Source: Felis catus
Taxonomy: Eukaryota
Assembly: GCF_018350175.1 (NCBI RefSeq)
Contig: NC_058368.1
Span: forward strand, 85,748,001 to 85,812,000
Direction: 5' to 3'
Length of the DNA: 64,000 bases
Shown: positions 521-32,744 of the stretch, piece after piece
Numbering within the stretch: the stretch's first letter is position 1
How the letters are laid out: every line of letters begins with the position of its first letter
Notes under the pieces: model-generated
Databases searched by the model: none
What the model saw: only the letters and a program-made list of their open reading frames with translations
Told to the model about the DNA's origin: nothing
Position numbers and translations under genes: made by a program

Positions 521-544
521 TTGTAGTGGAAATAGATGCCCAAG

Positions 545-3722: not shown

Positions 3723-3769
<47 letters not shown>

Positions 3770-3800
3770 GATAAACATCGAAAAAAAATAAAAGAAAAAT
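3574..3800 (+). mobile_element. Can-SINE, intermediate felid type; left arm only
   Basis: ggggcacctgggtgactcagc head, (CT)n, A-tail, aataattg TSD. The paralogous site near 42945-42960 is empty. Confidence 0.92.
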
Positions 3801-7900: not shown

Positions 7901-8087
7901 CGCCACCCCACAGTGAATCCCGCCCCTAGGAGAGGAGAAGAGAAGGTACACACCAGTCTGACTGTGGCTCCAGCGGTGGGCTGGGGGCAGACATCAGGTG
8001 ACTACGGCCCCGCCCACCAATGCAAGTTATTAAGACAGCACAGGGGAAGAGGCCTGCAGTTCAGCAACACTTCAGGGACTAACCAAA

Positions 8088-8978
8088 ATGAGGAAACGGA
8101 AGAATTCCCCTCAAAAGAATCTCCAGGAAATAATAGCAAATGAACTGGTCAAAAAGGATTGAAACAATATAACAGAAAGTGAACTTAGAATAACAGTCAT
8201 AGAATTAATCACTGGGCTTGAAAACAGTATAGAGGACAGCAGAGAATCTATTGCTACAGAGAACAAGGGACTAAGGAACAGTCAGGAGGAGCTAAAAAAT
8301 GTTGTAAATGAGCTGCAAAATAAAATGGAAACAACCATGGCTCGTATTGAAGAGGCAGAGGAGAGAATAGGTGAACTAGAAGATAAAATTATGGAAAAAG
8401 AAGAAGCTGAGAAAAAGAGAGACAAAAAAATCCAGGAGTATGAGGGGAAAATTAGAGGACTAAGTGATGCACTAAAGAGAAATAATATATGCAAAATTGG
8501 TATTCCAGAGGAGGAAGAGAGAGGGAAAGGTGCTGAGGGTGTACTTGAAGAAATAATAGCTGAGAACTTCCCTGATCTGGGGAAGGAAAAAGGCATTGAA
8601 ATCCAAGAGGCACAGAGAACTCCCTTCAGATGTAACTTGAATCGATCTTCTGCATGACATATCATAGTGAAACTGGCAAAATTCAAGGATAAAGAGAAAA
8701 CTCTGGAAACAGGTAGGGACAAACGTGCTCTAACATATAAAGGGAGACCTATAAGACTCGTGACTGATCTCTCTTTTGAAACTTGGCAGGCCAGAAAGGA
8801 ATGGCAGGAGATCTTCCATGTGATGAACAGAAAAAATATGCAGCCGAGAATCCCTTATTCAGCAAGTCTGTCATTTAGAATAGAAGGAGAGATAAAGGTC
8901 TTCCCAAAAAAACAAAAACTGAAGGAATTCATCAGCACTAAACCAGCCCTACAAGAGATCCTAAGGGGGATCCTGTGA
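8088..8978 (+). pseudogene. L1 ORF1p, disrupted by in-frame stops
   Basis: ATG at 8088 (MRKRKNSPQK...), coiled coil, IGIPEEEE and ENFPDL motifs. TGA at 8160-8162 and 8655-8657; natural stop at 8976-8978. Confidence 0.93.
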
Positions 8979-9028
8979 GACAAAGTACCAGAGACATTGC
9001 TACAAGCATGAAACCTACAGACATAAAA

Positions 9029-12000
9029 ATGACTCTAAACCTATATCTTTCTATAATAACACTGAAGGTAAATGGACTAAATGCACCAACCAAAAGACAT
9101 AGGGTATCAGAATGGATAAAAAAAAACAAGACCCATCTATTTGCTGTCTACAAGAGACTCATTTTAGACCTGAGGACACCTTTAGATTGAGAGTGAGGGG
9201 ATGGAGAACTATTTATCATGCGACTGGAAGCCAAAAGAAAGCTGGAGTAGCCATACTTATATCAGACAAACTAGACTTTAAATTAAAGGCTGTAACAAGA
9301 GATGAAGAAGGGCATTATAGAGTAATCACAGGGACTATCCATCAGGAAGAGCTAACAATTATAAATGTCTATGCACCGAATACGGGAATACCAAATATAT
9401 AAAAAAATTACTCACAAACAAAAGCAACCTTATGGATAAGAATGGTGGTAATTGCAGGGGACTTTAACACACCACTTACAGAAATGGATAGATCATCTAG
9501 ACACACGGTCAATACAGAAACAAGGGCCCTGAATGATGCATTGGATCAGATGGACTTGACAGATATATTTAGAACTATGCATCCCAAAGCAACAGAATAT
9601 ACTTTCTTCTCCAGTGCACATGGAACATTCTCCAAGATAGATCACATACTGGTCACAAAACAGCCCTTCATAAGTATACAAGAATTGAAATCATACCATG
9701 CATACTTTCAGACCACAATGCTATGAGGCTTGAAATCAACCACAGGAAAAAGTCTGGAAAACCTCAAAAAGCATGGAGGTTAAAGCACACCCTACTAAAG
9801 AATGAATGGGTCAACCAGCCAATTAAAGAAGAAATTAAAAAATATATGGAAAAAAATGAAAATGAAAATACAACAATCCAAATGCTTTGGGAAGCAGCGA
9901 AGGCAGTCCTGAGAGGAGAATACATTGCAATCCAGGCCTATCTCAAGAAACAAGAAAAATCCCAAATACAAAATCTAACAGCACACCTAACAAAATAGAA
10001 GCAGAACAGCAAAGGCAGCCTAAACCCAGCAGAAGAAGAGAAATAATAAAGATCAGAGCAGAAATAAAAAATATAGAATCTAAAAAAACTGTAGGGCAGA
10101 TCAACGAAACCAAGAGTTGGTTTTTTGAAAAAATAAACAAAATTGATAAACCTCTAGCTAGGCTTCTCAAAAAGAAAAGGGAGATGACCTGAATAGATAA
10201 AATCATGAATGAAAATGGAATTATTACAACCAATCCCTCAGAGATACAAGCAATTATCAGGGAATACTATGAAAAATTATATGCCAACAAATTGGACAAC
10301 CTGGAAGAAATGGACAAATTCCTAAACACCCACACGCTTCCAAAACTCAATCAGGAAGAAATAGAAAGCTTGAACAGACCCATAACTAGCAAAGATATTG
10401 AATCGGTTATCAAAAATCTCCCAACAAATAAGAGTCCAGGACCAGATGGCTTCCCAGGGGAGTTCTACCAGATGTTTAAAGCAGAGATAATACCTATCCT
10501 TCTCAAGCTATTCCAAGAAATAGAAAGACAAGAAAAACTTCCAGACTCATTCTATGAAGCCAGTATTACTTTGATCCCTAAACCAGACAGAGACCCAGTA
10601 AAAAAAGAGAACTACAGGCCAATATCCCTGATGAATATGGATGCAAAAATTCTCAATAAGATACTAGCAAATCAAATTCAACAGCATATAAAAAGAATTA
10701 TCCACCATGATCAAGTGGGATTCATTCCTGGGATGCAGGGCTGGTTCAACATTCCCAAATCAATCAACGTGATACATCACACTAATAAAAGAAAAGGTAA
10801 GAACCATATGATCCTGTCAATTGATGCAGATAAGGCATTTGATAAAATCCAGCAACCTTTCTTTTTTTTTTTTTTTCAACACTTATTTATTTTTGGGACA
10901 GAGAGAGACAGAGCATGAACGGGGGACGGGCAGAGAGAGAGGGAGACACAGAATCGGAAACAGGCTCCAGGCTCGGAGCCATCAACCCAGAGCCTGACGT
11001 GGGGCTCGAACTCCAGGACCGCGAGATCATGACCTGGCTGAAGTCGGACACTTAACTGACTGCGCCACCCAGGCGCCCCACCAGCAACCTTTCTTAATAA
11101 AAACCCTTGAGAGGGTTGGGATAGAAGGAACATACTTAAAGAACATCAAGCCATTTATGAAAAGCCCACAACTAACATCACCCTCAATGGGGAAAAACTG
11201 AGAGCTTTTTCCCTGAGATCAGGAACACGACAGGGATGTCCACTCTCACCGCTGTTGTTACCATAGTGTTGGAAGTTCTAGCATCAGCAATCAGAGAACA
11301 AAAGGAAATCAAAGGCATCAAAATTGGCAAAGATGAAGTTAAGCTTTCACTTTTTGCAGATGACATGATATTATACATGGAAAATCCGATAGACGCCACC
11401 AAAAGTCTGCTAGAACTGATACATGAATTTAGCAAAGTGGCAGGATACAAAATCAATGTACAGAAATCAGTTGCATTCTTATACACTAATAATGAAGCAA
11501 CAGAAAGACAAATAAAGAAACTGGTCCCTTTCACAATTGCACCAAGAAGCACAAAATACATAGCGATAAATCTAACCAAAGATGTAAAAGATCTGTATGC
11601 TGAAAACTATAGAAAGCTTATGAAGGAAATTGAAGAAGATATAAAGAAATGGAAAAACATTCCATGCTCATGGATTGGAAGAATAAATATTGTCAAAATG
11701 TCAATACTACCCAAAGCTATCTACACATTCAATGCAATCCCAATCAAAATTGCACCAGCATTCTTCTCAAAACTAGAACAAGCAATCCTAAAATTCATAT
11801 GGAACCACAAAAGGCCCCGAATAGCCAAAGGAATTTTGAAGAAGAAGACCAAAGCAGGAGGCATCACAATCCCAGACTTTAGCCTCTACTACAAAGCTGT
11901 CATCATCAAGACAGCATGGTATTGGCACAAAAACAGGCACATAGACCAATGGAATAGAATAGAAACCCCAGAACTAGACCCACAAACGTATGGCCAACTC

Positions 12001-13078
12001 ATCTCTGACAAAGCAGGAAAGAACATCCAATGGAAAAAAGACAGTCTCTTTAACAAATGGTGGTGGGAGAACTGGGCAGCAACATGCAGAAGATTGAAAC
12101 TAGACCACTTTCCCACACCATTCACAAAAATAAACTCAAAATAGGTAAAGAACCTGAATGTGAGACAGGAAACCATCAAAACCTTAGAGGAGAAAGCAGG
12201 AAAAGACCTCTCTGACCTCAGCCATAGCAATTTCTTACTTGACACATCCCCAAAGGCAAGGGAATTAAAAGCAAACATGAACTACTGGGACTTTATGAAG
12301 ATAAAAAGCTTCTGCACAGCAAAGGAAACAACCAACAAAACTAAAAGGCAACCAACGGAATGGGAAAAGATATTTGCAAATGACATATTGGACAAAGGGC
12401 TAGTATCCAAAATCTATAAAGAGCTCACCAAACTCCACACCCGAAAAACAAATAACCCAGTGAAGAAATGGGCAGAAAACATGAATAGACACTTCTCTAA
12501 AGAAGCCATCTGGATGGCCAACAGGCACATGAAAAGATGTTCAACATCGCTCCTCATCAGGGAAATACAAATCAAAACCACACTCAGATATCACCTCACG
12601 CCAGTCAGAGTGGCCAAAATGAACAAATCAGGAGACTATAAATGCTGGAGAGGATGTGGAGAAAAGGAAACCCTCTTGCACTGTTGGTGGGAATGCAAAT
12701 TGGTGCAGCCACTCTGGAAAGCAGTGTGGAGGTTCCTCAAAAAACTAAAAATAGACCTACCCTATGACCCAGCAATAGCACTGCTAGGAATTTACCCAAG
12801 GGATACAGGAGTACTGATGCCTAGGAGCACTTGTACCCCGATGTTTATAGCAGCCAATAATAGCCAAATTATGGAAAGAGCCTAAATGTCCATCAACTGA
12901 TGAATGGATAAAGAAATTGTGGTTTATATACACAATGGAATACTACGTGGCAATAAGAAAGAATGAAATATGGCCTTTTGTAGCAACGTGAATGGAACTG
13001 GAGAGTGTGATGCTAAGTGAAATAAGCCATACAGAGAAAGACAGATACCATATGTTTTCACTGTTATGTGGATCCTGA
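9029..13078 (+). pseudogene. L1 ORF2p (endonuclease/reverse transcriptase), frameshifted and SINE-interrupted
   Basis: MTLNLYLSIITLKVNGLN, CCLQETH, GDFNTPL, SPGPDGF, FADDM and [18 protein letters not shown] motifs spread over several frames. Confidence 0.95.
10864..11080 (-). mobile_element. Young felid Can-SINE (SINEC_Fc-like) inserted in L1 ORF2
   Basis: Perfect 15-bp TSD ccagcaacctttctt at 10849-10863 and 11081-11095. Confidence 0.97.
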
Positions 13079-13303
13079 GAAATTTAACAGAAACCCATGG
13101 GGGAGGGGAAGGAAAAAAAAAGAGTTTAGAGAGGGAAGGAGCCAAAGCATAAGAGACTTAAAAACTGAGAACAAACTGACGGTGATTGGGGGTGGGAGGT
13201 AGAGGAGGGTGTGTGATGGGTATTGAGGAGGGCACCTTTTGGGATGAGCACTGGGTGTTGTATGGAAACCAATTTGACAATAAGTTTCATATATTAAAAA
13301 AAA

Positions 13304-13690
13304 TAAAGAAAAATTAACAACTATACTTCACAATTCTTTCAAAAAATAGGAGAGGCACATTCAATAAATCATTTTTTCTAAGTTAAACATTACCTTGATA
13401 CCAAAGCCTGATAGAAAAAAAAGAGATAATACAGACTAATATCCTTAAGAATAATAATGCAAACAACCTTCAATAAAATGCAAGCAAATTGAATCTAACA
13501 GCATTGTATACAACATAGTAAAAGATCCATGCACTATGATCAAGTGGGATTTTCCCAGGAATACAAGAGTGTTCCAACATAAGAAAGTCAACAAAAGTAA
13601 TTGACCACAATAGCAGATTAAAGGTAGAAACCTACATGATAATCTCAAATGATGCAGAAAAGACATTTAAAATGAATCTATCACTCCCGT
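13304..13690 (+). mobile_element. Old L1M ORF2 (RT region) fragment
   Basis: Degenerate cattaccttgataccaaagcc, catgcactatgatcaagtgggattt, gatgcagaaaagacattt. Confidence 0.85.
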
Positions 13691-14532
13691 AAAAAAAATG
13701 ATTTTTATGTATAGGTTTTTCTTTGTCTGTTGTTTTGTTCCTTGTCTTTCTAGAATATGTAGAAAAGAGAACATGAGTTCTGTTTTCTTTCCTGTTCTAA
13801 GGATTAAAGATCACTTAATACCTAGTTTTTACAGAATCACTTATGTCAAAATTAATTTCTTATATTTACTTCATCTTAAATTGGTCTGAATCTCATGTCT
13901 TTGGCCATATACCCCTAGGTCAAAAGTAAGGCAAGGTGAATAATCTTGTACGGTAGCTGCCTAGTAATTAACTTCCCCATGAGACTTTCAATTAAGCTCT
14001 ATGTGACCTCAGGACAATCATGTGTAGGGAGGACTTCCTAAGAGAGTTACTAAGTACTCATACCTATGAAAGGATATCAATGGTTTTGGAATTCGGAGGA
14101 AACCCTTGAGGAATCCCCCAAAATCCTCCCCAGAAGAAAAAGTGAGAATTTGAGCATCCCACACAGATGAGTCTCATGTGAGACTAGTTTTTCTCCTTCC
14201 TTTCCACAAACCCACACTCTGCTCCACCTTTAGCTTTCTTTCCTGAAGGAACCACAATATTCATGGGAGGAGAGAGGAGGTAGGAAACCTGAGGCAGATG
14301 GGGCAAAGGGCATGGTATGGCCTGTAGAGTTTAATACTCAAAATCGACATGGAAAAATAATTCTGGGAAATGTATTTGAAATGGTAATAGTGACTGAATC
14401 AGGTTGTTTCTTGTATAAACTTAATGATTTTCAAGTTATTCTACATACTAGTTATAAAGGCAGGTATAATTATGTGTACTGTAGTCACATTTGGTCAAAT
14501 AACTAATAAATAGCTATTTTGAAAATGTACTT

Positions 14533-14570
14533 TTTTTAAATTTTCTTTTTAATGTTTATTTATTTTTGAC

Positions 14571-14618
<48 letters not shown>

Positions 14619-14784
14619 AGTGGAGGAGGGGCAGAGAGAGAGAGGGAGACACAGAATCTGAAACAGGCTCCAGGCTCTTAGCTATCAGCACAGAGCCCAA
14701 CACAGGGCTCAAACTCATGGACAGTGAGATCATGACCTGAGCTGAAGTTGGACGCTTAACTGACTGAGCCACCCAGGGGCCCCA
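14533..14784 (-). mobile_element. Can-SINE, intermediate felid type
   Basis: SINE body with (GA)n; aaaatgtactt TSD on both sides. Confidence 0.93.
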
Positions 14785-17358
14785 AAAATGTACTTATTTA
14801 AATGAATTTGCTATTCCAAGAAACATACTGTATTATTATCTACTTAAGAAACTTCTCAAGAAAGAACTTGTGAACACTTTTGCTGACTCTTTTCTGAAAT
14901 ACTCAAATCAATAGATTATCATGATGTGGTTGAGGGTAAAAACCATTGAATTCCAATTGATCCTAAGTCTGCAGCCATCAAGAGTTCATTCTGGAGGGCA
15001 AATCTTCAGTAAATTCAGATTAATGTAAGATATATGTGGGAGGTTTCCAAGATTGTTCAACTAAACATCCTATGGTTTGGAACATTTTAATGTGTAGTTC
15101 AGGAAACCATCTCCTTATTTGTAAAACTCCAAGACCCATGTCCGAGTTTTTATGGTTGGCCAAAATAAAGGATCTATTGCTTAGGCTGAGTACCTAAGGA
15201 AACCACCACATTAATGTATGGTAAGCCAAAGCAAACCACCGCTCTGAGGAAGTCCTCATTTCTCAGTTTTTTTTCCCCTCCTTCATTTTCTTCATATCCT
15301 CTTTCAACTATTATAAGTGAAATGTGATAGAATGAAGTCCTGAAGGCTAGTTTCATACTATACTCTTATGCTAGAAAGAATGGGTGGAAGTTGTAGCTCC
15401 TTGGCACCTATTTTTTCAACTTCAAGACCTCATCCAAAAGAGACTCTAATATCCTGTTTTAAATCCATATAATCACATTTACAAATCAAATAGTATTTTT
15501 TGGTTTGTGTTTATTACTGTTATTATTAACATTATTATTGTGAAAATAAGTATCTCTGTGTCAGAGATATATACTGGATCATCAAGTCTTTGGTCTTAAG
15601 GTCTCTGTTTTAAAGTCAAGACCAAGTACTAGGACAGATTTTCCATGAATAAGGATAGGAGGACAAGTTATAACATACTTTTATTTTGTTTATTTCTTTA
15701 TATAGGGAAAATAGAAAAAGAGAATGGTAAGCAATATTTATATTTGACTGAAGCAGTCTTTGAACATTCCACACTTGATGTTCTTTAATTATTATTTAAA
15801 ACACAAAATCCGGACACCCCATTTATGAACTAAATATGTTTAGACACAACTAAAATATCTTTCTGCTATTTTCTTAAAAAAATGAACATAAGTATTCATA
15901 AGACAGGGAAGCTTATAGGCATAAATGGAGAAGAATAAGATGCATCAGCTTGTGCTTTTAAGGCTGGAACTCAGGTCTTAACATCTGCCCTATTCGTTGA
16001 AGGCCATCATCTCCTGTGCATATAGTAATTAACTACCTATTTTATACTCAGTGCTTAAGAAACACTGAGGAGTAAAGACTCTCTTTCTCTATGGAAGTTG
16101 CTATCTTAAGACAGATGCAAATTCCACAAGTAAATAATAAATGTAAAACAAATATTCTAATAGTGTTATGGAAGAGGGCTCATGATGCCATGAACACATA
16201 CAATAGTGAGATTGTACTTAGTCACGGGGTTGTGAATTTGCTGAAAAAGCTCAATGCAGAAGAGGCTAGTGCTATTGAAGAGGACAGGTAGGTCAAAGAG
16301 AGGACTACCATGTGTAAAGGAGAAAGCACAACATGTGTTAAACTCTGGGGATAGGGGAGTGAGCCCCTGCTTCCATGAGAGGAGACAATATTAGCCAGGT
16401 TACTCTGGTTCAGAAAACCCAGACAAGATTATAGGATAGGCAAAGACTGGGAAATGCAACATCTCTTTACCATTATAAGAATTTTGAATGCCACCCAAGA
16501 AACAGAATTTTGAATATTATCTAAGAAAATCAGGAAATCTTAGAAATGTTAAACAAACCAACAAAAGAAGATGCAATGTCAAAATTTTATTTTCAAAAAT
16601 TTATTTATTTCTGAAGGTAAAGAACAGATTATATGGTGAGTGGTTAAAAAAAAGAAAAACTAGGGAGAATCCCTCTGAGATATACACTCAGCTAAATAAA
16701 CAGGCCTCAAAAGTCTGTACATGCTTACTTATTTCCTATTTCTGGTTAGTCTTTAAGGCCAGCAATTGCATATATTATGTAGTTATTATATAAGTCTAAA
16801 AGTCTCTTTAATTAAAAAGAAAAAAAATCCTGGGTAAATTGGCAATTTAATGAAAGAGAAAAATTCTGTGTAAAATCTGTGGTTGCATTTTGATTCTGAG
16901 ATTCTTGGTCTGGAAGCCTATGCCATAGTGTCTGCAGTTTTGTCCCTGCTTTACCTGACTTTGGAATCCTATTAAGATTTAGATTTTCGGTGTGACAGAC
17001 TTTCTCCTTTAAGGAAAGTTGTTGATCAAACCTAAAAGTGCTCTGAAATGGTCTATATAACATAAACCCACTCTCATTGAAATCAGAATTAACCATAGAT
17101 TAATCCAAACCTAAAAACCACTACGCATAAATTTATTACATTTCCAATATTTCTTCTCAACTAATTTTCCCAAAATTGAATTAATACTTCTTTGAAGTAA
17201 AGAAAACTTGAATTCATGTCACAAAGAGTGCCAACACACAACTTTACTCTTATTAAAAAAAAAAAATAAGTGATACATGGAAGAATGAAAGCATTTATGT
17301 ATAGTTACCAAAGGTAGGTTAGTCATGAAGGACATATCCTGACAAGAAAATGTATTTG

Positions 17359-17400
17359 TCATCATCATCATCATCATCATCATTATCATTATCACCATAA
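17359..17400. repeat. (CAT)n microsatellite
   Basis: tcatcatcatcatcatcatcatcattatcattatc. Confidence 0.9.
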
Positions 17401-17947
17401 TCGTCAACAACAGTCTACATTTAATTATTATAGTTTTTTATACCAAAGATATTGTGCTGTACAATGATAATACATAGGGGAATATGAAGCACATATTCTT
17501 TCCTTCATGTGGTCAACATTAAAACACAAATAAAAATTATTAAAGTAATATGATGTCAAAGAACTAGGAAAAACTATCAAAGAGGAGGTAGACAAAAGGC
17601 ATATCATAACCAACCTGCCACTTTTAGAATTTAATCTTTATCCTATGAATGGTGAAAGCACCTGAGAAATTTTGAGTAGGTATGTATCCTAAAGATTATA
17701 AGATTGATATTTTAGAAAGACTGCATTAAAGAATCCACTAATGTGTGTAGGAGTGGGCATTGGGAGAACAGTATAGTGGCTGTCCCTCTTTCTGGCCTAT
17801 CCAAATGGATACATTCATTTTTTCCCTGAGATGATAAGAAAATTCAACACTTAATATCAGTAATTCATCAACTCTCTTAATATTAGTGATCTTTTCAATT
17901 ACCTAAACGTCGGATAATTGGAACCAGGCACTCAGTGACACTTGGCC

Positions 17948-17952
17948 AAAAA

Positions 17953-17991
<39 letters not shown>

Positions 17992-17992
17992 A
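17948..17992. repeat. (AAAT)n microsatellite
   Basis: About 10 tandem aaat units. Confidence 0.95.
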
Positions 17993-18701
17993 TTCCATTC
18001 TCTGCTTTTAATTTGTTGCTTTGACTTTGGGCTGTATACTCACAAACTACACTTTTACTTTACCTGCTTTTTGGTCCAAAGTCATTTTTCTGCATGCCAC
18101 TTGTCTTTTATTCCCTTTTTGTAAGATCATTTCAGGGATGGGATTTATAAATGAGCAATAGTTTTTGTGTGTGTGCATGTGTGTGTATGTGTGCGTGTGT
18201 GTATGTGTGTATGTGTGTATGTGTCTTTGTGGTTTTTTTTTCTTTTATCAGAGTAAGGGAATAATCAGTACCTCACTGTACAAAAAAGAACTAGTTTATT
18301 AAATTTTATTTACAAGAAGGTAAATCACTCATTCACTGAAATATGCAATAGAAGAGTGCTTATTTTCATGGAAAAAATTACAATTTATTTTGATATAAGA
18401 ATAAATTGTGAAAAACATGTATTAGATTATTCCTTTTGTTATTGTGGGGTAAAACTATTCTGGATATTTAGATGATGAAAATATGACAAGATTTATTAAA
18501 GGGGGTAAAACTGGGCAATAGAAACCTCATGGGATATTTTTTCTTGGATTTTTAAAAAATACATTAACACATTTTTGTAATAAGTTATGTTTATAATTAT
18601 ACATAAAGAAAATAATACTTGCCAAAGTTAGCAGGAATGCCCTTGGTGACCCTTCTTGTTCTTAAAGTACCTGCATTTTATAATGTTGTTTCAATTGGCA
18701 G

Positions 18702-18796
18702 ACAGCTTCTCGATGTCTCTGTGGATGGAGATACTATGTCATATTTGTTGGAAGGTTTTTTTTTTCCAATTAAATTAGGAATGTCATGAATAAAAG
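18702..18796 (+). pseudogene. Degenerate transmembrane exon of the BTN-like pseudogene
   Basis: ttgtttcaattggcag| acceptor; phase-1 start reads (D)SFSMSLWMEIL, like the S/P-W-M start of BTN TM exons; ends ATA AAA G|gtaata. It is 95 nt long with a frameshift and stops. Confidence 0.5.
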
Positions 18797-19094
18797 GTAA
18801 TAAACAGTACTTGTGGATGTATTAGATAAGTTAAATACCAGATGATGAATGCAGAATTTTGTATTTTTTTCACATTAGCTCAATTATCCAGCATGTTGTA
18901 GATAACAATGTCATCCTAACTTAAGATACTTTCTTGATCACACAGATCATCCTTGGTAAAGATATTATTTTGTTATAGTTTGCTTTTTATAATTGAGTTG
19001 TATGTGTTCTTCATATATTTTGTATATTAACTCTTTTATCATGATTTGCAAAAATTTTCTACCATTCTGTATGTTGTCTTTTCACTTTACTGAT

Positions 19095-19387
19095 TTCCCT
19101 CAGTTCTGGAAGCTGTGAAATCCAAGGTCAAGGCACCAGTAGATCTGGTGTCCAAGGGTCCACTTCCTGGTTTGCCAATGGCCATGTTCTCACTGTTCTC
19201 TCACATGACAGAAAGCTGAGAGCAAGAACAAATTCTCATGTCTCTTCTTATGAGAGACTAATACTATTCATGAGGGCTCCACTGTAATGACTTAATTACT
19301 TTCCAAAGACTTCATGTCCAAATATTATTACATTGGGGTTAGAATTTTAACATATGAATTTTGTAGAAAGAAATTCAGTCTATAACA
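19095..19387 (-). mobile_element. MLT1A-like MaLR LTR fragment
   Basis: cagttctggaagctgtgaaatccaaggtcaagg...attcatgagggctcc...acattggggttagaattttaacatatgaatttt...tcagtctataaca. Confidence 0.85.
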
Positions 19388-20370
19388 TGACATTAGAGGC
19401 ATGGTAGTCAAAAACTTTCTTGGTGACATATTTTTAAAATATAAAACCTAGTAAAATGGTTACAGAATTTTATATTTGTTGAATTACTAGGAAATACCTA
19501 TGTACTACAATAACAGGACACTACCTTGAAAGAGACCTGAGCTTTCTACCTCCCCTACCTCCACCTCCATGCCCAACAACTTGTGCAAAGGAATAAAGAA
19601 AAAAAAAAAAGGACAGTGATGAGGACAAAGAGAAATAAAAGAGAAAAATAATAGAAAACAAATATGAATAAAAACCAAAAAATGAAGGGCATAGTACTAT
19701 GCACCATTGGTGAGGGTGGAAGATTGGAATTTTGTGATGTGGCAGGACAGTTTTAATATCAGTTGCAGATGGGTGTATTTCAATGTCCTTCTAAGATTTG
19801 TACATATATGTATGTATGTTTGTGTATGATTTTATGTTGTATGTATTTCTACAACTCTAGACTTAACCGGGTACTTCTATCCTGTAAAATCATACATAAA
19901 AAGTGAAAAATTCACAATACACTCAAATTCTTTCTTAATATGTTAATTATATTAGGACAAATTTGCAATTTGAAAACAAGCAATATTGCAGAACTAATTG
20001 CATTTAGTTTTAATTCCTCCAGTGCAGAGAAATAGAAATGATATTCAAACCTCACTGTTGCTTTCAGTGCTAGCTTCTTAATATTTACACTTTCTGGAGA
20101 GGACAGTATGTAGGAGTCCATATGCTTAAAGCAAACTCCTCAGGAGAGGCTATTTCTGGGCAAAAATTTGCTTTATGGTCCTTCGAATTATGCTAACACA
20201 AAGAGAACCAATAAGTTTTTAACCATTATTTATTTTCGATATCTGTAACTTACATCCAACCATTGTCTTTTTTCCTTACCTCAATGATTTACATGTGTAA
20301 GTATTAGACAGTCTAGTTAACAATTCCTAACCAACTTCCCGCAACGATTTGTCACTGTTTTGCATTGTAA

Positions 20371-20391
20371 GAAAGCTTCATAAAGAACCTG
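20371..20391 (+). pseudogene. 21-nt heptad micro-exon (xKLHKEPx)
   Basis: GA AAG CTT CAT AAA GAA CCT G followed by a gtaagt donor. The acceptor reads ttgcattgtaa, i.e. AG apparently lost; a cryptic AG 1 nt later would give 20 nt. Confidence 0.75.
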
Positions 20392-20493
20392 GTAAGTAAA
20401 ATATCTCTGTGAAGATAGAAATGCAAATATATTTTTAAAAAAGATATATAAATATATTTCAAAGCAATCTCTCACTACCTCCCACTCTTTCAG

Positions 20494-20520
20494 AAAGGAT
20501 AAAACTCCAGGGAGAAGAAG
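20494..20520 (+). pseudogene. 27-nt micro-exon (ERIKLQGEE)
   Basis: cctcccactctttcag|AAAGGATAAAACTCCAGGGAGAAGAAG|gtgagt: canonical splice sites, phase 1-1, open. Confidence 0.85.
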
Positions 20521-20723
20521 GTGAGTAATGAAAATGGCCACCTCTAGCCCCCACTCGTGCAGCTGTGTTTTGACCACTCATCACTTTCCTGTTGTATTCA
20601 CTGTTAAATCTTGGTTCATAGATAGAGAGATATCTATATATACATATTATACATGTTATAATATATACATAATATACATATTATGATAGATAATATATAT
20701 TATATTAATAATATTAATTTTAG

Positions 20724-20750
20724 GGTTGAAATTTGCTCACCGCTATGCAG
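20724..20750 (+). pseudogene. 27-nt micro-exon preceding B30.2 (GLKFAHRYA)
   Basis: aattttag|GGTTGAAATTTGCTCACCGCTATGCAG|gtagct; ends in YA, like the KYA/KHA end of the BTNL pre-B30.2 exon. Confidence 0.85.
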
Positions 20751-21694
20751 GTAGCTAGAGAGTGAAGTATTTGGGTAGTTATTCTTATTTTTAGCCAGCA
20801 CATTAGGATGCCAGACAAGGGAGACTTACACTCAGAAACTCACACATAACACCCGCCCCCCCCCCCCACACACACATATTTTTTTTTCTTCAGAACTTCC
20901 ACTTTGTCACTCTTATTTTTGAGTAGTTTATAGCTACAGCTCCTTATATATCACAAATGCTGTTGCTCTCTGAGGTTTAGTAATAGAGGGAAGCAGAATA
21001 TTATAACCCAAAATGACATCATTAAAAATGCTTTTCAGAACAAGAAATGAGTTGGGGGATGATTCTAGGTGGTAGCTTAGAGAGAATGGGGTAAAGAAGG
21101 TTGCCTCTCTTCTATGTTAGGATGGAGGCTAGTGACACAAAATGACAGTAATTGCCTATGGATCACAATCAGTGGTCCATCAATTACTTTATCAAATTAA
21201 AAACTCCTACCTCCTTTAAAGATACCTTTTGACTTTTAACAAATTGTCAACTTTATGACCTCTTTTTAATATTAGGAACAATAACAATTTGGGTTACATT
21301 TTCCAGCTTTGTATTATTTCAAACAAAGTGTTTTCATTTAATTTACAAAAATAAAGTGAGAAGAATAAAAGTCAGGTATTAACACATTGTTTTTATAAAG
21401 AAATATGTGATAAGTGTTCCTAGGAGATTTCTCCAGTTTATATAAATACTTGACATAATATTCACATTCATTAGAGAACTAAAGAAGCACATTTACTAAT
21501 TGAAAAAAAGTCAGCCTAGATATTAGATATTGGTTTAAAAAATGCCCCTGAGCAATTGAGTTGCAGTGACTTTAAGGGTACATAATTCTATATTTACAGT
21601 GCTAACATATCAGAGTCTTTAGTTATTTTATAGTACATTAATAGTAGTGAATTTTCTTTGTGGTTACGCTGATACAAATAAAAATTAGTTTTAC

Positions 21695-21925
21695 GGGGGC
21701 GCCTGGGTGGCTCAGTGGGTTAAGCGTGCAACTTCAGCTCAGTTCATGATCTCCCAGTCCGTGAGTTTCAGCCCCGCGTCGGGCTCTGTGCTGACAGCTC
21801 AGAGCCTGGAGCCTGTTTTGGATTCTGTGTCTCCCTCTCTCTCTCTCTCTCTGACCCTCCCCCGTTTCATGCTCTGTCTCTCTCTGTCTCAAAAATAAAT
21901 AAACGTTAAAAAAATTAAAAAAAAT
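21695..21925 (+). mobile_element. Can-SINE, intermediate felid type, in the last intron of the pseudogene
   Basis: ggggcgcctgggtggctcag head, CT tract, A-tail; tagttttac TSD core. Confidence 0.95.
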
Positions 21926-22199
21926 AGTTTTACTTACAACTATGAGAACTTAATTCATAACAGCAACACTTTTAGCCTATATTAACAGAATCCTATGTAA
22001 TTTGGTGAATATCTGGATCATTTTTGGATTGTGTGTTTATATGCTTTCAACATTTTAAAATTTATGTTTGGATTCTTGTGTATGTGAAAATATGTACCCA
22101 TGTGAAAGCAATTTTAGGAAAAGAAATGGAGAAAATCTGGTTAAACTTCATGAAGTCATTTAGGGCAAATTTTAAATTGTCAAAGCATTCAGATTTAAA

Positions 22200-22490
22200 G
22201 TAAATATATTTTATATATACATATATGCTGATATGTAAATTATAATTATTAAATTATTATAATAAAATTATAAATATAATATATAAAATATAAATACTTA
22301 ATACTTAAATTATAAGTATTATTAAATTATAATTTAAATTGTATTTTAATTATATTTACTTTAATTATATTTTAATTATATTTTAAAATTAATTAATTTT
22401 AAATTAAAATACATTTTAATTTAATATTTTAATTATATTTTAATTTAAATTATAATTTAAATTATACACAAACACACACACACACAAACT
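22200..22490. repeat. AT-rich low-complexity tract with short palindromes
   Basis: Almost pure A/T; includes the 24-bp palindrome taatttaaattataatttaaatta at 22441-22464. Confidence 0.9.
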
Positions 22491-22967
22491 GTTTTTCATT
22501 AATTCATGAATTGAATCAGAGATCTGGACTTTAATCCAAACATCGATGTATATTAGTAATCATAGTTGGACAATTTCCCTTAATCTGTGCTGTCTCAACT
22601 ACAAAATGAAAATATATCTCCCATTGCCTTGCTATGAAAATTATTTATAAATATGCTTCAAACAACATGAGGCACATAAGTGTTCATACTACATTGGCCA
22701 TATTCATAAGTCATTTTGAATAGAAAATATCTGCATGTTTAGATACTATTTTTTCTATTCTGAATAAATACTCATTATCGAGTTCTCAACTGTGTGAGTT
22801 AATAAATTGAGGTGATATAAATAGTATGAGATGAGGGAAAGGATCCACTTCATTTGAAGAAAGCTAAAGAAAGATCCTAGATAGAGGAAGGACTCTTGTA
22901 TATTATGTTAATTATTGTTGATGATCATTGATCATAGCCAAGACTGACAACCTGTTTTTCCATGTAA

Positions 22968-23536
22968 AATGTTACCTTGGATCCAGACAGAGATCTTTCA
23001 AATCTCCAAATTGCTGAAGACAAGAAAAGTGTGAAAGGAAGTGAAATCTTTCAGGAAGTACCCAAATGTAGGCAGCAGTTTGATAACCAGGTCTGTGTAT
23101 TGGGTGAACAAATTTTTTTTTCAAAGGTAGACACTATTGGAAATTGAGTGTGAAAAAGAAAATAAAATGGACTATAGGCATTTGTGAGGATTCTGTTTGC
23201 AGATGAGGAGAAATCATGGTGTCCCCAGAGACTGGGTTCTGGACACTATGCTTGAATAGAAGTAATAACTACCAAGCACTTGCAAATCTACAGATAATAC
23301 TCCACCTTGAGGAATCTCCTGATATAACTGGTATCTTCCTGGACTGTAAGGCTGGAAGGGTGTCCTTTTATAATGTGACCAACCTGTCTCACATGTAAAC
23401 CTATAGAAAGTTCTTCACAAAGCCCCTCAGGCCATCCTTTTGTCCTGGCCCCCTCTACAATGGTCAACATAGACATCCACTCACCATTCTGCCACTAAGT
23501 AATATTGAAAAGCCAGGAAGAAGATGTTCTTTGTGA
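22968..23536 (+). pseudogene. B30.2 (PRY-SPRY) terminal exon, disrupted
   Basis: NVTLDPDRDLSNLQIAEDKKSV...[15 protein letters not shown] [frameshift near T9 run 23113-23121] [40 protein letters not shown]...GIFLDCKAGRVSFYNVTNLSHM*TYRKFFTKPLRPSFCPGP...PLTILP. Stops at 23204 and 23396. Branch-point-like ctgac and a pyrimidine tract lie upstream; AATAAA at 23784. Confidence 0.95.
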
Positions 23537-23574
23537 CTGAGGAAGAGTTGCTCTATTTTGAAAATTTGAGAATT

Positions 23575-23742
23575 TATATATGTAGTTTATAGTTTTATAT
23601 ATAGATATATATATATAGTTATATGTATAGTTATATATAGTTATATATATAATTATATATATAGTTATACACATAGTTATATACATAGTTATATATATAG
23701 TTATATACAGTTTTATATATATAGTTATATAATATATAAATA
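23575..23742. repeat. (TATAGTTATA)-type low-complexity repeat
   Basis: Repeated tatagttata / tatata units. Confidence 0.9.
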
Positions 23743-24103
23743 TTTTCTTTTAGAATGACTAGAAGTATGTACTTCTTCCATCAAATAAATCTAAAAATCA
23801 TTTTGGTGTCATAATTTATACATTTTTTATTATTCCAGTTCCCAATATGTCCATTTGCTAATAGACAGGAATTATTTGATTTGAATTACATGCTGTTGAA
23901 TTTACTTGATGACAATTCAAGTTCATAGAACATAAATACAAAAGCAAAAGCAAGTATCTTACTTGTGCAATTGGTGAAAGAAAGTTAAAACTCAGGTGTT
24001 CCCTGATGGGTATGATTTCTCCTTCATTAATGTTTTGACATGGAAGAGGACCTGGAGTCTATTCTGCATCATCAGGAAATTGGCTGGAGCCCATACCTTT
24101 TTA

Positions 24104-24324
24104 TTTTTTTTTAATTTTTTTTCAACGTTTATTTATTTTTGGGACAGAGAGAGACAGAGCATGAACGGGGGAGGGGCAGAGAGAGAGGGAGACACAGAAT
24201 CGGAAACAGCTCCAGGCTCTGAGCCATCAGCCCAGAGCCTGACGCGGGGCTCGAACTCCCGGACCGCGAGATCGTGACCTGGCTGAAGTCGGACGCTTAA
24301 CCGACTGCGCCACCCAGGCGCCCC
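24104..24324 (-). mobile_element. Very young felid Can-SINE (SINEC_Fc-like)
   Basis: CpG-rich intact body; perfect 17-bp TSD gagcccataccttttta at 24087-24103 and 24325-24341. Confidence 0.97.
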
Positions 24325-25151
24325 GAGCCCATACCTTTTTAATTTTGCCTAAGCCTAGAAGAGCATGATGACTTTGATAAGAGATTTATCAACCTGGCCT
24401 ATGTACTCTTTACTACAAAAATATCTTCAAGTGAATATGACTTCCAGCCACTTGTTTCTTTACCTTTTCACCTCTATGCTGTTTTGAAGTTTAAATGACC
24501 TCATCTCCAACTTAATTTGGTATAACAGTATCATTTATTCGTCTACTCAACAAATGCAAAATACAAAAGTATTGCATATGTGTTTTAGATATCCATTAAC
24601 TACAACACTGTAACTTGTCTATCTGTAACTGTTACTATGTATCTGGTACTGACAATAAACAGATAAACACTGACAAATAGTTACTAATTTCAAAATAGTG
24701 TGTGGGAAAGGCTAAATGTATTCAGATATAGAATGATAGTGAGTGGGTTCACTTCAATCTTGTCATCAGGAAAACTCTCACTGAGAAAGTGATGCATAAA
24801 AAATGGACATTTCCACATGCACAGCTGGAAAGATTCAATTCAAGACAACATTCAAAATGCAGAAAGAGTGGGCCTGGGTGAGAGAGTAGAAGACCTATGG
24901 GGCTCAGATGATGTTGGGACAGAATGGTTTTAAATTAGGTAGAGGCAATTAGCTGAAGCAACACGACAGGCTGAATGAACTGAGATAGATTTTCTTTCTA
25001 CCACAAACAGATTTTTTGGGTTTATTATATTTAAATGTTATTTAAATATTTAACATATAAGTAAAGAAATGTTAAAATGAAAATGTTCAGCAAAAAATAA
25101 AATTTAGTAAAATACTCCAAAAGAATAGCAATCTTATTGTCAAAGATTATT

Positions 25152-25357
25152 TAATTTATTATATATACACATATATTGAAACAGAGAGAGTGAATGGGGG
25201 AGAGTAAAGGAGAGACGGAGCAAGAGGAGATCCCAAGCAAGTTCCACACTAGCAGCATGGACCCGATGTGGGGCTCGAACTCACAAACTCACAGATCATG
25301 ACCTGAGCTGAAACCAAGAGTTGGACACTTAACTGACTGAGGCAACCAGGTGCCCCA
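25152..25357 (-). mobile_element. Can-SINE, older feliform type
   Basis: SINE head ends ccaggtgcccc; diverged TSD tgtcaaagattattt / tgtcataggttattt. Confidence 0.9.
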
Positions 25358-26025
25358 TGTCATAGGTTATTTTAGAAGAGGTGCACTAAATCTAGTTACA
25401 TGAATCTAACTGCTCATGGGCATGGAATACTTAATAGAGTCAAGAGAGAACATGAAGTTTAGGGAAAGTTCTGTATGTATATTCTAAGTTATTGTCCCAG
25501 AAAATTGAGGAGATAGTATGGTTGCCTGCACCTCACTTAAAACATATGGGAAAAAGTTAAGAGGTTGATCTGCCTCGAGAAATGTAAAAAACTCGGTGGA
25601 CCTATGCTTCCTTCTTTCTTAGATATTGAAAGTGAGAGAAGGGCCAGTAGTTTCTCTGTAGTGTGATGGAGGAGTGCGGCATTGCATGACATGTGCACTT
25701 AGGGCCTTTCTGGGTGAAGATCTCTTGTTTTCTGAAGGCTAGACTATGGTTCATGCAAAAGAACTCCTCTGGGATGCTGCCTGCAGTAGAAAATACATAT
25801 TAGTGGAAATCAGATTGCATATCACAAGATGCCTGATGGCTCAGAAAGGATCATGACAAGCCAAAATACAGACATGTTTCACCTTCAAGTTAACAGTAGG
25901 ACAAAGATCCTTAGCTATTTGAGGGTCTTTGAAGAACTAAGGAGGGGAAAATGAGCTTGAAATGCTTTCTCCATGTAGCTCATTTCAGTAATGATGAAGT
26001 AAAAACTTTCTCATTCTTGTTACAA

Positions 26026-26066
<41 letters not shown>

Positions 26067-26464
26067 GTAGCTCAGAACAGTAATAACTAAGTAAGAATAT
26101 TCTCATTCCTGTTATCTTCATTTCCTCCTTATTCAGACACTCCACAATTCTCTACAATGTACACTTTACCTTATTGCATTGAGTAACATACCAACTCATT
26201 CAATCACAGGTGTTTTCCTGGTAACTTTACATAGATGGTATTGATAAATGTTAAGGAGAATAGACATCTATCATATTGAGGCATCTTTCCACTAACATTA
26301 AACTTTCTTGTAGAATAAGGTTTAGAGAATGGATAATTTAGAGCAAAGGGGACATTCATGACAAAAGTAATTTGCCAAACTACCTATTCCAGTTGCACAA
26401 GACACAATACAATCTCATCGTACTGGAATGCCTGAAATTCTGCTTTAATTAAAAATAAGAGAAT

Positions 26465-27844
26465 GAGAGAGGAGTAAATGGTGGAAGAGTAAGGAGACTT
26501 CTCTAAGTTTGCTTCAGCCTTCAAACACAGCAAGATAAATAACAAATCATTATGAACAATCAAGAAATAGATCTGAAGACTGAGAAAACAAAACTGCACA
26601 TCTACAAGTAGAAACAATACCATATCATGGTAGGTAGGAACTGCAGAATTTTCATATGGGAGAGAAAAGAACTGTGAGTGCTGCAAAAGGGAAAGAGCCT
26701 TGATTACAGAGAGAAGAGTGAGCTAGCAAGCAAGAGAGAGAGAGACAGAAAGAGCGAAGCATCAGGCAGAGGATTACATCAGGAAAATTCTTCCTGTAAT
26801 GCACTGATTGGAAAAAGGGGCTGACTCTTGCAAGTCATTATAAGCAGCAAACACAAGTCTGAAGTTTTAGAAAAATACGCCATTGACTGGGGTCATGGCT
26901 GGTGGGCTTAGTGGTGTTCCTGTTAGGAAGGAGAGTGAAGACATGGGATTGGGCAGCCAGGTGTGAGGATCACCGGGGTCACATAGGTGAAAGCACTTCC
27001 TCTTTTTGGAGTGCATTTGGGAGTGGTGGCGCAGCCTCTCTGGGTCAAAAGGACTGGTGGTGTCAACGTGTTGCCCTGCTGAGGGCAACAAATCTTTGTG
27101 TTGACCGTTTTCTGAGTTTTACCATAAACTCTAAATAAATGTGGGGTCATACAACTACTTTTCTGGGACAAACCAGAAAATTGCAAAAGCACAGTGAGAC
27201 CCTTTACCCCAGAAGAACTGTGTAAGTCTGTGTTGTGTGGGTTCATAAAATTTGAAGTTTTGAAACCAGACACATACCTGAGATAAAACACAGGAGTTTT
27301 GTCCCCCCTTGCAGGTAGGAAACTCAGACACAGACAAAGTGAAGGCAGGGATCCCACAAGAGTGCCATTCTGTAGCAGCCACCCTGTACCCTGAAACTAC
27401 ATGTTCACTAGACCAGTTAACCTGAGAATCAGTGCAGCAGGACACTTGCCCAAAAGACCAGCAAAAAACCTCTAACCCCAAGTCCACTGATCATAGAGTG
27501 GTCCAAAGCTTCAGCACTCGGGGACATAGGATCTAGCTTATTTTTTATTGTTTTGTTTATTTTATTTTATTTTATTTTATTTTATTTTATTTTATTTTAT
27601 TATGTTGATCTGGTTTATTTCACAAGCATACGAAAAGACACATAATGTTAAAACTTACCACAAAGTGTACAATGTCCAAACACCCCCCACTGCAGGCAAG
27701 GAGAAACTCTTCAGAGAACTGAAGTGAGGGTATAAACAACCAAAACACAACAGCAGAGTACATATAAGAGCTCCCCTTTTTTATGGACCTCTTCTTAGTT
27801 TAGGCATTACTCTCAGGAACAGGAATAACAGGCTTTCTTAACAA

Positions 27845-27881
<37 letters not shown>

Positions 27882-28302
27882 GTGAACTAGACAAAATGAC
27901 AAGATGGAGGAATTCACCCCAAAAGAAAGACAGGAGATCTCTGAAACAGAATTAAAAAAAAAACATTATAAGGATATGAACTGGGCTTGGGAAAAAGCAT
28001 AGAAAGCAACTAAAGAATCCCTCACTGCAGAGATAAAAGAACTAAAAACTGGTGAGCCTTAAATTAAAAATGCTATAACCAAGATACGAACCTGACTAGA
28101 TGCCATGACAGCAAGGATGGATGAAACAGAAAAAAAATAATGATATAGAGGATAAAATTATGGAAAATAATGATTCTGAAAAGAAGAGGGAGAGAAAGGC
28201 ATTGTATCAAAAGGCAGACTTAGCAAACTCATAACTCCATAAAGTGTAACAAAATCTGTGATAGGAGTCCTAGAAGAGAGAGTAAAAGGGGCAGGAGGTT
28301 TA
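26465..28302 (+). mobile_element. Older carnivore L1 5'UTR and ORF1 start, with (ATTTT)n and (CA)n tracts
   Basis: ORF1-like aaaatgacaagatggaggaattcaccccaaaagaaag at about 27895 and gaggataaaattatggaaaataat, homologous to 8088-8530. Confidence 0.85.
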
Positions 28303-30290
28303 TTTTAGTATTTGGAATTTTTTGTGGTTCCATTCTAATATTAGGGCTGATCTTGCTCTGCAAAGAATGCTGATGGTACTTTGGTGAGGATTGCATTATA
28401 TGTGTAGATATCTTGGATAGTATAGACATGTTAACAATGTTTATTCTTCCAATCTATGAGCATGGAATGCTTTTCTATTTCTTTGTGTCTTCTTCAATTT
28501 CTTTCATATACCCTCTATAGTTTTTTGTGTATAGTTCTTTTACTTCTTTAGTTAGGTTTATTCCTAGTATCTTATGGGTTTTGGTGCAATTATAAATGGG
28601 ATTTATTCTCTGATCTTTTTCTGCTGCTTCATTATAGGTGCATGGGAATGTAACAGCAACAGGTTTCTGCACTTGATTTTATATCTTATGGCATTTCTGA
28701 ATTCTGAGAATTAGTTAGTATTAGTTCTGAGAATTTCTTGGTGGAGTCTTTTGGGTTTTCTACATAGAGTATCATGTCATCTGCACCAGTGAAGTTTTGA
28801 CTTCTTCCTTACTGAATTGGATGCTCCTTATTTCCTTTTGTTGTGCCTGATTGCTGAGGCTAAGACTTTCATTGTGATATGAAATAGTAGTCGTGAGGGT
28901 GGGCATCCTTGTCTTCTTCCTGACCATAGGAAAAAGGATCTCAGTTTTTCCCCATTAAGGATGTTATTAACAGTGGGTCTTTCTTATATGACCTTTATGA
29001 TGCTGAACTATGTTCCATATATCCCTATCTTGTTGACGATTTTTATCAAGAAAGGTTGCATTTTATCAAGAAAATGCTTTTTCTACATCTATTGACAGGA
29101 TCATATTTTTATTATCCTTTTTTAAATATGGTTTATCACATTGATTGATTTGTGAATATTTAACTAGACTTGCATCCCAGTAAAAAATCCCACTTAGTTA
29201 TGTTGAATAATTCTTTAATCTACTGTTGAATTAAATTGCTAGTATCTTGATGAGAATTTTGCATCCATATTCACCAGGGATATTGGCCTATAATTCCCTT
29301 TTTAATGTGTTCTTTGTCTGGTTTTGGAATCTTTGAAAAAGGAAAACAAAACTGGAGGCATTACAATTATGGATTCCAAGTTATACTACAAAAATGTAGT
29401 TATCAAGAAAATATGCTACTGGCACAAAAACAGACACACAAAGCAATGGAACAGAATAGGATACCCATAAATATACCCACAACTATATGGTCAAGTAATT
29501 TTCAACAAATCAAGAAAGAATATCCAATATATAAAAGACACTCTGTTCAGCAAATGGTGTTAGAAAAACTGGATGGTGACATGCAGAAGAATGAAACTGG
29601 GCCACCCTCTTGCACCAAACACAAAAATTAATTCAAAATGGAAGAGAGACATAAATGTGAGGCAGGAAACCATCAAAATCCTTGAGGAGAATACAGGCAG
29701 CAACGTCTTTGACATTAGCCCTAGAAACTTCTTACTAGACACATTGCTGAAGGCAAGGGAAACAGAAGCCAACACTAACCATTGAGATTCCATTGAGATA
29801 AAAACCTTCTTCACAGAGAAGGAAACAATCAAGAAAACTAAAACGCAGCCTATGGAATGGGAAAATGTATCCTGCAATCGCACTACTAGGTATTTACCCG
29901 AAGGGTACAGAAAAAAAAAGATTCAAAGGGGTACATGAACCCTGATGTTTATAGCTGTATTATCAACAATAGCCAAACTATCCAATATCCATAAAATAAT
30001 GAATGGATAGAGGAGATGTTATTATATATAATGGAATATTGTTCAGCTGTCAAAAAGAATGAATTTGTGCCCTTCACAATGACATGGATGGAGAATAAGT
30101 GTATCATGCTAAGCGAAATAAACCAGAAAAATAAAAATACTATATGATTTTCATGTGTGGAATTTAAGAAACAAACAGATGAATATATGAGAAAGGGGAA
30201 GAAAAGAGAGAGAGTGGAAAACATGCATAAACCTCTCATAAGAGACTATTAACTGTGGAGAACAAACTGAGGGTTGATAGAGGTCAGTGG
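28303..30290 (+). mobile_element. 5'-inverted truncated L1 (antisense 28303-29331, sense 29332-30290)
   Basis: The antisense part matches about 10573-11829 of the full-length L1; the sense part resumes at about 11835. An internal deletion occurs near 29880. Confidence 0.85.
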
Positions 30291-30424
30291 AATATTTGAT
30301 AAAATATAAAATTTTCTTTGTTGCTTCATGGACTGGTGTATTTTTAAATAAAATATTTTAAAAAGGATCAAATTCATTGACAACAACAACAAAAAAGGAT
30401 ATAAAGGTTTTAGGCTCTCTAGGT

Positions 30425-32735: not shown

Positions 32736-32744
32736 CCAAGATTT

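What the first reader, a model, noticed from the sequence alone, without database searches (positions are those of the whole stretch)
20371..20750. Hidden 21/27/27-nt micro-exon array identifies a butyrophilin-family gene invisible to the ORF track
Seen: three tiny segments with GT donors (two also with canonical AG acceptors), all phase 1-1, which join to the B30.2 exon as xKLHKEP-ERIKLQGEE-GLKFAHRYA-xNVTLDP. Established: BTN/BTNL/ERMAP genes encode their juxtamembrane coiled coil in 21- and 27-nt exons just before the B30.2 exon, unlike the TRIM exon layout. Inference: the SPRY relic belongs to a butyrophilin, not a TRIM. I cannot match the peptide to a named gene, so it may be a divergent or lineage-restricted paralog.
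Basis: partly seen in the sequence, partly recalled or inferred. Interest (0 to 1): 0.75.

Follow-up and report, generated by a model that had tools for sequence, protein, structure and literature searches.

The report
Headless relic of unnamed butyrophilin subfamily
The three tiny segments are real but belong to a broken, headless tail fragment of a cat immune-type (butyrophilin) gene from a cluster whose intact relatives in many mammals likely form an unnamed subfamily, and one neighbouring copy is predicted to have more than doubled its inner stalk by tandem duplication of such tiny exons.

Summary
But this copy is a dead 3' fragment: two of five acceptors are mutated, the B30.2 exon has a frameshift and two stops, and no leader, IgV, IgC or transmembrane exon lies upstream on its strand. 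It sits in a cat cluster of such genes between TRIM58/OR2W3/OR2AJ1 and OR2L8-like genes. Its B30.2 falls in a strongly supported clade of Ig-TM-B30.2 proteins from carnivores, bat, golden mole, anteater, squirrels, hedgehog and marsupials, apart from cat BTN1A1-, BTN2A-, BTNL9-type genes, ERMAP and TRIMs; databases give only generic names and ten paper searches found no description. So 'butyrophilin, not TRIM' holds; 'lineage-restricted gene' does not. More interesting: the neighbour whose first coding exon lies at 49563 carries seven 12.2-kb tandem units, each with two heptad exons (predicted stalk 136 residues versus 38-59 in other cats), chicken-BG-like, but possibly an assembly artefact. 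The scan noted related heptad-exon B30.2 designs earlier in sharks (unchecked).

The parts
20371..20391 (+). 21-nt heptad micro-exon (h5), acceptor mutated to AA, donor intact
   Evidence: AG in paralogs A and D
20494..20520 (+). 27-nt micro-exon, AG/GT intact
20724..20750 (+). 27-nt micro-exon, AG/GT intact
22966..23536 (+). broken B30.2 (PRY-SPRY) terminal exon: acceptor GT instead of AG at 22964-22965, 2-nt insertion near 23112, stops at 23204 and 23396, original stop at 23534
   Evidence: (PRY E 1e-9)
13693..33326 (+). collinear block homologous (70-83% per piece) to the 3' half and downstream flank of the paralogs; the extent of the relic
13290..13686 (+). about 400 nt matching the TM-to-h1 intron of paralog D (76%), followed by a jump of about 21 kb in D's coordinates; likely trace of an internal deletion (the piece is itself an old L1 fragment)
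7174..13320 (+). about 6.1-kb L1 at the junction between the relic and the upstream flank of the opposite-strand paralog A; no target-site duplication found
1..7163 (-). upstream flank of paralog A (minus strand, leader exon 4.2 kb left of the window), homologous to the upstream flanks of paralogs B and E
49563..49629 (+). first coding (leader) exon of paralog B, the only copy here with an open predicted frame; its other exons lie right of the window up to G000:C1:85,969,376

Best explanation
The segments are heptad micro-exons of a broken, headless 3' fragment of a butyrophilin-type gene that likely lost its front half by deletion and would make no protein. Shown: four micro-exons plus a B30.2 exon remain; leader, IgV, IgC, TM and three further heptad exons are absent on this strand; two acceptors, the frame and two codons are broken. 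Shown: it is one of five B30.2 and four IgV copies of one subfamily in a 600-kb cluster. Inferred: an old tandem duplicate stayed under selection for a time (exons 88.5% identical to paralog D, flanking blocks 74-81%), then lost its 5' half at an L1-containing junction and decayed. Inferred from established butyrophilin biology: in intact paralogs these exons build the juxtamembrane coiled coil that pairs chains and spaces the cytosolic B30.2 ligand-binding domain from the membrane; each 21-nt phase-1 exon adds one heptad, so exons can be gained, lost or skipped in frame.
For: Lesions. Missing 5' half: tblastn and DNA search with 12 paralog exons and flanks find only h4 and h5 here; the genome search lists 4 IgV exons of the subfamily at 70-100% identity, none upstream on the + strand, against 5 B30.2 copies. 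Homology to IgV-IgC-TM-B30.2 proteins, best 77% to a seal protein, none near-identical among 16 hits of 125 candidates. Tree: 17-row clade 100/99, 25-row clade 99/99 of 64 rows; IgV tree of paralogs 26 of 34 rows, SH-aLRT 95. Private changes in B30.2: window 11 synonymous/25 non-synonymous, pN/pS 0.62, not different from neutral (p 0.13), versus B 0.48 (p 0.013) and D 0.33 (p 0.010). Two RNA-library contigs run unspliced across the dead acceptor and share the first stop. Coiled-coil role of the BTN juxtamembrane region: PMC10665462, passages; heptad exons: PMC6790196, passages.
Against: The deletion is inferred without a second felid genome; a partial duplication or an inversion leaving one orphan half would look similar. 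No target-site duplication does not prove L1 recombination, and the L1's parts do not show a clear chimera. The selection test has little power (36 changes). Three of four micro-exons keep perfect splice sites. Splicing of the micro-exons was not tested on reads; two raw RNA runs gave no reads but only 1-2% of each was read and without a positive control.
Confidence: 0.88

Rival explanations
1. The fragment never had a front half: it arose as a partial (3'-only) segmental duplication, or as the orphan half left by an inversion that re-paired paralog A's front half with another tail.
For: A second orphan 3' fragment (C, G000:C1:85.99-86.00 Mb) starts in the same intron, and an orphan front half (E) exists at 86.23-86.27 Mb; the relic abuts paralog A's upstream flank in opposite orientation.
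Against: Exons are better conserved than introns against every paralog, as expected after a period as a working gene; a piece matching the TM-h1 intron survives ahead of it; no paralog is a close donor (78-85% in the B30.2 exon).
Confidence: 0.2
2. The relic is still transcribed (from the L1 or paralog A's promoter run backwards) and its three intact micro-exons are spliced into a non-coding or short-peptide RNA that could regulate the paralogs.
For: h4 and both 27-nt exons keep canonical sites; 4 runs on record as RNA hold part of the B30.2 exon.
Against: The two laid are metatranscriptome contigs that cross the exon boundary unspliced and may be DNA; no functional constraint shown.
Confidence: 0.08
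3. It is the tail of a TRIM gene.
For: Best solved-structure matches of the paralog's B30.2 are pyrin and TRIM21 (166, 159 bits) ahead of BTN2A2 (148); one cat TRIM has a 27-nt exon before B30.2.
Against: No RING/B-box in 860 kb; all close database relatives carry IgV; paralogs A, B, D have leader, IgV, IgC, TM exons upstream.
Confidence: 0.01

Closest known systems
RefSeq 'butyrophilin subfamily 1 member A1-like / 2 member A1-like / ERMAP-like' models, e.g. XP_030170666 (Lynx), XP_047712925 (Prionailurus), XP_060492527 (Panthera), XP_039741479 (Pteropus), XP_076994395 (Tamandua)
   Same: Same subfamily: same micro-exon peptides in the same order, B30.2 62-77% identical to the relic's C-terminal part.
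   Different: They are full-length IgV-IgC-TM-heptads-B30.2 models; the window copy lacks the front half and is broken. Their names are automatic and inconsistent within one cluster.
Named butyrophilins BTN1A1, BTN2A, BTN3A, BTNL3/8/9/10, ERMAP
   Same: Domain order in the paralogs, and 21- and 27-nt phase-1 exons ahead of the B30.2 exon (PMC6790196 passages).
   Different: Not orthologous to the cat copies tested by tree; paralog B's IgV is about equally far from MOG (111 bits), BTNL3, BTN2A1, BTN3, BTNL8, BTN1A1 (94-100), Skint1 (85), BTNL2 (84); different locus, among OR2W3/OR2AJ1/OR2L8-like genes next to TRIM58; up to seven micro-exon types instead of two to four.
Chicken BG genes (PMC4046983, passages read)
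   Same: Cytoplasmic coiled coil built from 21-nt exons whose number expands and contracts; paralog B behaves so among felids.
   Different: BG has one Ig domain and a long heptad tail; the paper contrasts this with butyrophilins, which have 'a few' heptads and B30.2 and were thought fixed in number within a species. Paralog B keeps IgC and B30.2.
TRIM58 and other class-IV TRIMs
   Same: B30.2 domain; TRIM58 lies 360 kb away.
   Different: RING/B-box absent; TRIM loci show 23 + 101-116-nt candidate exons; outside the clade.

Membership tests
Butyrophilin (BTN/BTNL) gene | Leader, IgV and IgC exons | tested here: not met
   Absent upstream of the relic on its strand; present in paralogs A, B, D. 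Hence filed as a fragment derived from a butyrophilin gene, not as a member gene.
Butyrophilin (BTN/BTNL) gene | Single transmembrane exon | tested here: not met
   Absent in the relic, present in paralogs A, B, D.
Butyrophilin (BTN/BTNL) gene | Short phase-1 heptad exons (21, 27 nt) before B30.2 | tested here: met
   Four present, one with a dead acceptor.
Butyrophilin (BTN/BTNL) gene | Intact terminal B30.2 exon | tested here: not met
   Recognisable (PRY) but acceptor dead, frameshift, two stops.
Unnamed therian butyrophilin subfamily (as a pseudogenic fragment) | B30.2 inside the clade of the IgV-bearing paralogs and their database relatives | tested here: met
   17-row clade 100/99, 25-row clade 99/99.
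Orthologue of BTN1A1, BTN2A, BTNL9, BTNL10 or ERMAP | Clusters with the cat copy of that gene | tested here: not met
   Labels: BTN2A, ERMAP by 84% to P0023; the BTN1A1, BTNL9, BTNL10 labels are recalled from sequence and position, not from a call.
Orthologue of BTN3, BTNL3/8, BTNL2, SKINT or MOG | Closer to that gene than to other butyrophilins | tested here: inconclusive
   Only search scores, roughly equidistant; these sequences were not in the trees.
TRIM (class IV) | RING and B-box exon upstream | tested here: not met
   No hit in 860 kb at E 0.01 with two TRIM N-termini; both RING control tiles hit.
TRIM (class IV) | 23-nt plus about 100-nt exons before B30.2 | tested here: not met
   Seen (both or one) in 5 of 6 cat TRIM loci; the relic has 21/27/27.
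Chicken BG (considered for neighbour B) | One Ig domain, long heptad tail, no B30.2 | tested here: not met
   B has IgV, IgC and B30.2.
Chicken BG (considered for neighbour B) | Heptad-exon number varies by duplication and splicing | tested here: inconclusive
   Seven tandem units in this assembly against 0 to at least 3 copies in models from other felids; not verified on reads or transcripts.

The most novel reading that the evidence does not exclude
The relic marks an undescribed, therian-wide butyrophilin subfamily beside TRIM58 and the OR2W3/OR2L cluster, kept and multiplied in carnivores, bats, squirrels, moles, afrotheres, xenarthrans and marsupials but lost from human and mouse; in the domestic cat all copies but one are dead, and the survivor has more than doubled its juxtamembrane coiled coil by tandem duplication of a 12.2-kb two-heptad-exon unit, a mammalian counterpart of the length-variable tails of chicken BG proteins.
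Probability: 0.5. Interest if true: 0.68.

Novelty: new member of a known kind. Interest (0 to 1): 0.42.

Why it matters
The relic itself is an ordinary pseudogene fragment. Its value is as a pointer. Butyrophilins select and activate gamma-delta T cells and the juxtamembrane coiled coil decides how chains pair (PMC10665462, passages), yet the family is catalogued from human and mouse. A separate, old subfamily that those two species seem to lack would be a candidate ligand set for T cells of carnivores, bats and squirrels, and a paralog whose stalk length differs from 38 to a predicted 136 residues among cats gives a natural test of whether membrane-to-B30.2 spacing matters for signalling.

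Tried and rejected
Splice-pattern statistics as proof: rejected, 7 of 11 motif triplets in 860 kb are not the homologous sets. TRIM origin: rejected. Intact orthologue of the window copy in protein databases: none among 16 hits of 125 candidates, best 77% (only proteins of 234-2000 aa searched). Profile search for named mammalian BTN references returned mostly turtle proteins (120 of 631 listed), so cat genomic copies served as references. L1 target-site duplication: none better than 8 nt with one mismatch. Raw RNA runs X24 and X21: zero reads in 1-2% of each run, no positive control, so no test. The 14 runs holding all 73 sampled words of the B30.2 exon (6 studies, 3 flagged as possible source) were ranked for perfect match and say nothing on allele frequency. 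Papers: ten searches found no description of this subfamily or locus; the library lacks most subscription journals, and supplements were not read. PMC11102460 (passages) compares only human, mouse and naked mole-rat BTNs; PMC8968916 had no occurrence of five terms tried. Rows left out or flawed in the B30.2 tree: cod TRIM7 dropped (cut failed); the row for paralog A contains an overlap from two joined matches; fragment C fills 43% of columns; midpoint root.

Full report
Observation. The first has AA for an acceptor; the other two are canonical. A pattern-only scan shows that such triplets arise by chance: 11 hits in 860 kb on both strands, 4 anchored on the homologous exon of this family. What makes them real is homology: the same exons with AG..GT sites occur in neighbouring paralogs and their peptides stand in order in database proteins of lynx, fishing cat, jaguar, bat and anteater. 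A fourth 21-nt exon at 15706-15726 was missed.

The copy is dead and headless. The B30.2 exon has GT where all four paralogs have the acceptor AG, a 2-nt insertion in a T run near 23112, and stops at 23204 and 23396. Searching 860 kb (G000:C1:85.43-86.29 Mb) with full-length relatives and with 12 paralog exons plus flanks finds no leader, IgV, IgC, TM or h1-h3 exon upstream on this strand. Genome-wide the searches list five B30.2 copies and four IgV copies of the subfamily, all in this cluster; such searches give lower bounds. Collinear homology to the paralogs starts at 13693 and runs to about 33300; window 1-7163 is the upstream flank of paralog A on the other strand; a 6.1-kb L1 without a found target-site duplication lies between. 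A 400-nt piece at 13290-13686 matches the TM-h1 intron of paralog D at 76%, suggesting a second deletion, though the piece is an old L1 fragment. Micro-exons are 85 of 96 nt identical to D against 74-81% for flanking blocks, and the relic's private B30.2 changes (11 synonymous, 25 non-synonymous) do not differ from neutral, unlike B and D (low power). I infer a once-working duplicate that lost its front half and decayed. Two RNA-library contigs cross the dead acceptor unspliced and share the first stop; one also covers and shares the second stop; the other has a longer T run, still out of frame. They may be DNA. Splicing of the micro-exons was not tested on reads.

Where it lies. Neighbouring receptor ORFs match Felis catus proteins exactly (3 of 4 genes looked up) and their clusters are named OR2W3-like, OR2AJ1-like and OR2L8-like; TRIM58 is 360 kb to the left. 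That this order matches human 1q44 is recalled, not tested. The cluster holds: A (minus strand; frameshifts in IgV and B30.2), the window relic, B (leader exon at window 49563), fragment C (3' part only), D (frameshifts in IgC and B30.2 in this assembly, intact in lynx and other felid models) and E (front part, stop in IgV).

Butyrophilin or TRIM. The 17 best relatives of B's B30.2 among 102 hits all carry IgV. No RING/B-box exon is in the region while controls hit. In a 64-row B30.2 tree the relic lies in a 17-row clade (100/99) of carnivore, bat, golden-mole and anteater sequences, inside a 25-row clade (99/99) adding squirrels, chinchilla, hedgehog and two marsupials; cat BTN2A, ERMAP, pyrin, TRIM58, other cat BTN- and TRIM-type exons and turtle BTNs fall outside (names, others recalled). 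An IgV tree gives the same group (26 of 34 rows, SH-aLRT 95, quick method) and adds bushbaby and moles. BTN3, BTNL2/3/8, SKINT and MOG were compared only by search score and are about equidistant. No human, mouse, dog or cow name appears among the listed close relatives, which is weak evidence of absence because the lists are partial. The rule works for the set, not for a lone 27-nt exon.

How the intact relatives likely work. Established: BTNs have short heptad exons between TM and B30.2 that can be skipped (PMC6790196, passages), and the juxtamembrane coiled coil controls chain pairing (PMC10665462, passages). Database isoforms of paralog D differ in steps of seven residues by these exons. 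Ligand and tissue are unknown; a T-cell co-regulatory role is inferred from the family alone.

The neighbour. Paralog B contains seven tandem 12.18-kb units at 99.9% identity, each with two 21-nt exons with AG..GT sites and a third with a dead donor. If all 19 micro-exons are spliced the frame is open for 592 residues, 495 of 516 identical to the fishing-cat protein, with 136 residues between TM and B30.2 against 38 in jaguar, 45-59 in fishing cat and 52 in Geoffroy's cat; other Geoffroy's cat models show three units. This resembles the length-variable heptad tails of chicken BG genes (PMC4046983, passages). Against it: units 2-6 have no substitution between them, so an assembly artefact is possible; no cat protein of this form appeared; nothing was checked on reads.

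Novelty and verdict. Ten paper searches found no account of this subfamily or locus; only listings were seen for most, passages for PMC4046983, PMC6790196, PMC10665462, PMC11102460, and a null term search in PMC8968916. The proteins are in databases under generic names. The finding proper is an ordinary pseudogene fragment with a correct family call; its context raises it to moderate interest, 0.42.

Noticed in passing
G000:C1:85,887,225-85,965,193 (L039-L042, L007-L011); gene starts at window 49563-49629: Seven 12.18-kb tandem units inside paralog B, each with two heptad micro-exons; predicted stalk 136 residues versus 38-59 in other felids; units 2-6 identical, so real recent expansion or assembly artefact.
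   Followed up: partly
G000:C1:86,111,869-86,196,284 (L054-L057, L015-L019): Paralog D has frameshifts in its IgC and B30.2 exons in this assembly although its orthologue is modelled intact in lynx, leopard, cheetah, puma and others: possible recent loss in the domestic cat.
   Followed up: partly
G000:C1:85,991,962-86,002,875 (L014, L043): A second orphan 3' fragment (C) begins in the same intron as the window relic and lacks h5 and the second 27-nt exon hits.
   Followed up: partly
G000:C1:86,225,316-86,280,000 (L060-L065): An orphan front part (E; IgV with a stop) is 84-89% identical, inverted, to paralog A's front part and flank, closer than any other pair; an isolated minus-strand leader exon lies at 86,102,620.
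   Followed up: no
G000:C1:85,845,517 and 85,884,337 (paralog B): Two heptad exons of B have acceptors changed to AT; database orthologues skip the first and use a 12-nt remainder of the second through an internal AG, breaking the heptad register by three residues.
   Followed up: partly
window 51338-51772, minus strand: 144-residue stop-to-stop frame that resembles, from recall only, a decayed retroviral envelope transmembrane segment, inside intron 1 of paralog B.
   Followed up: no
G000:C13:31,296,200-31,306,199 and 31,393,300-31,403,299 (L132, L135): Two B30.2 genes with three consecutive 27-nt candidate exons; one groups with an opossum butyrophilin-like protein at 100/98, perhaps another old unnamed lineage.
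   Followed up: no
G000:C1:86,060,704-86,061,636 (L049): An intact OR2L8-like receptor gene sits inside the butyrophilin cluster, between fragment C and paralog D.
   Followed up: yes
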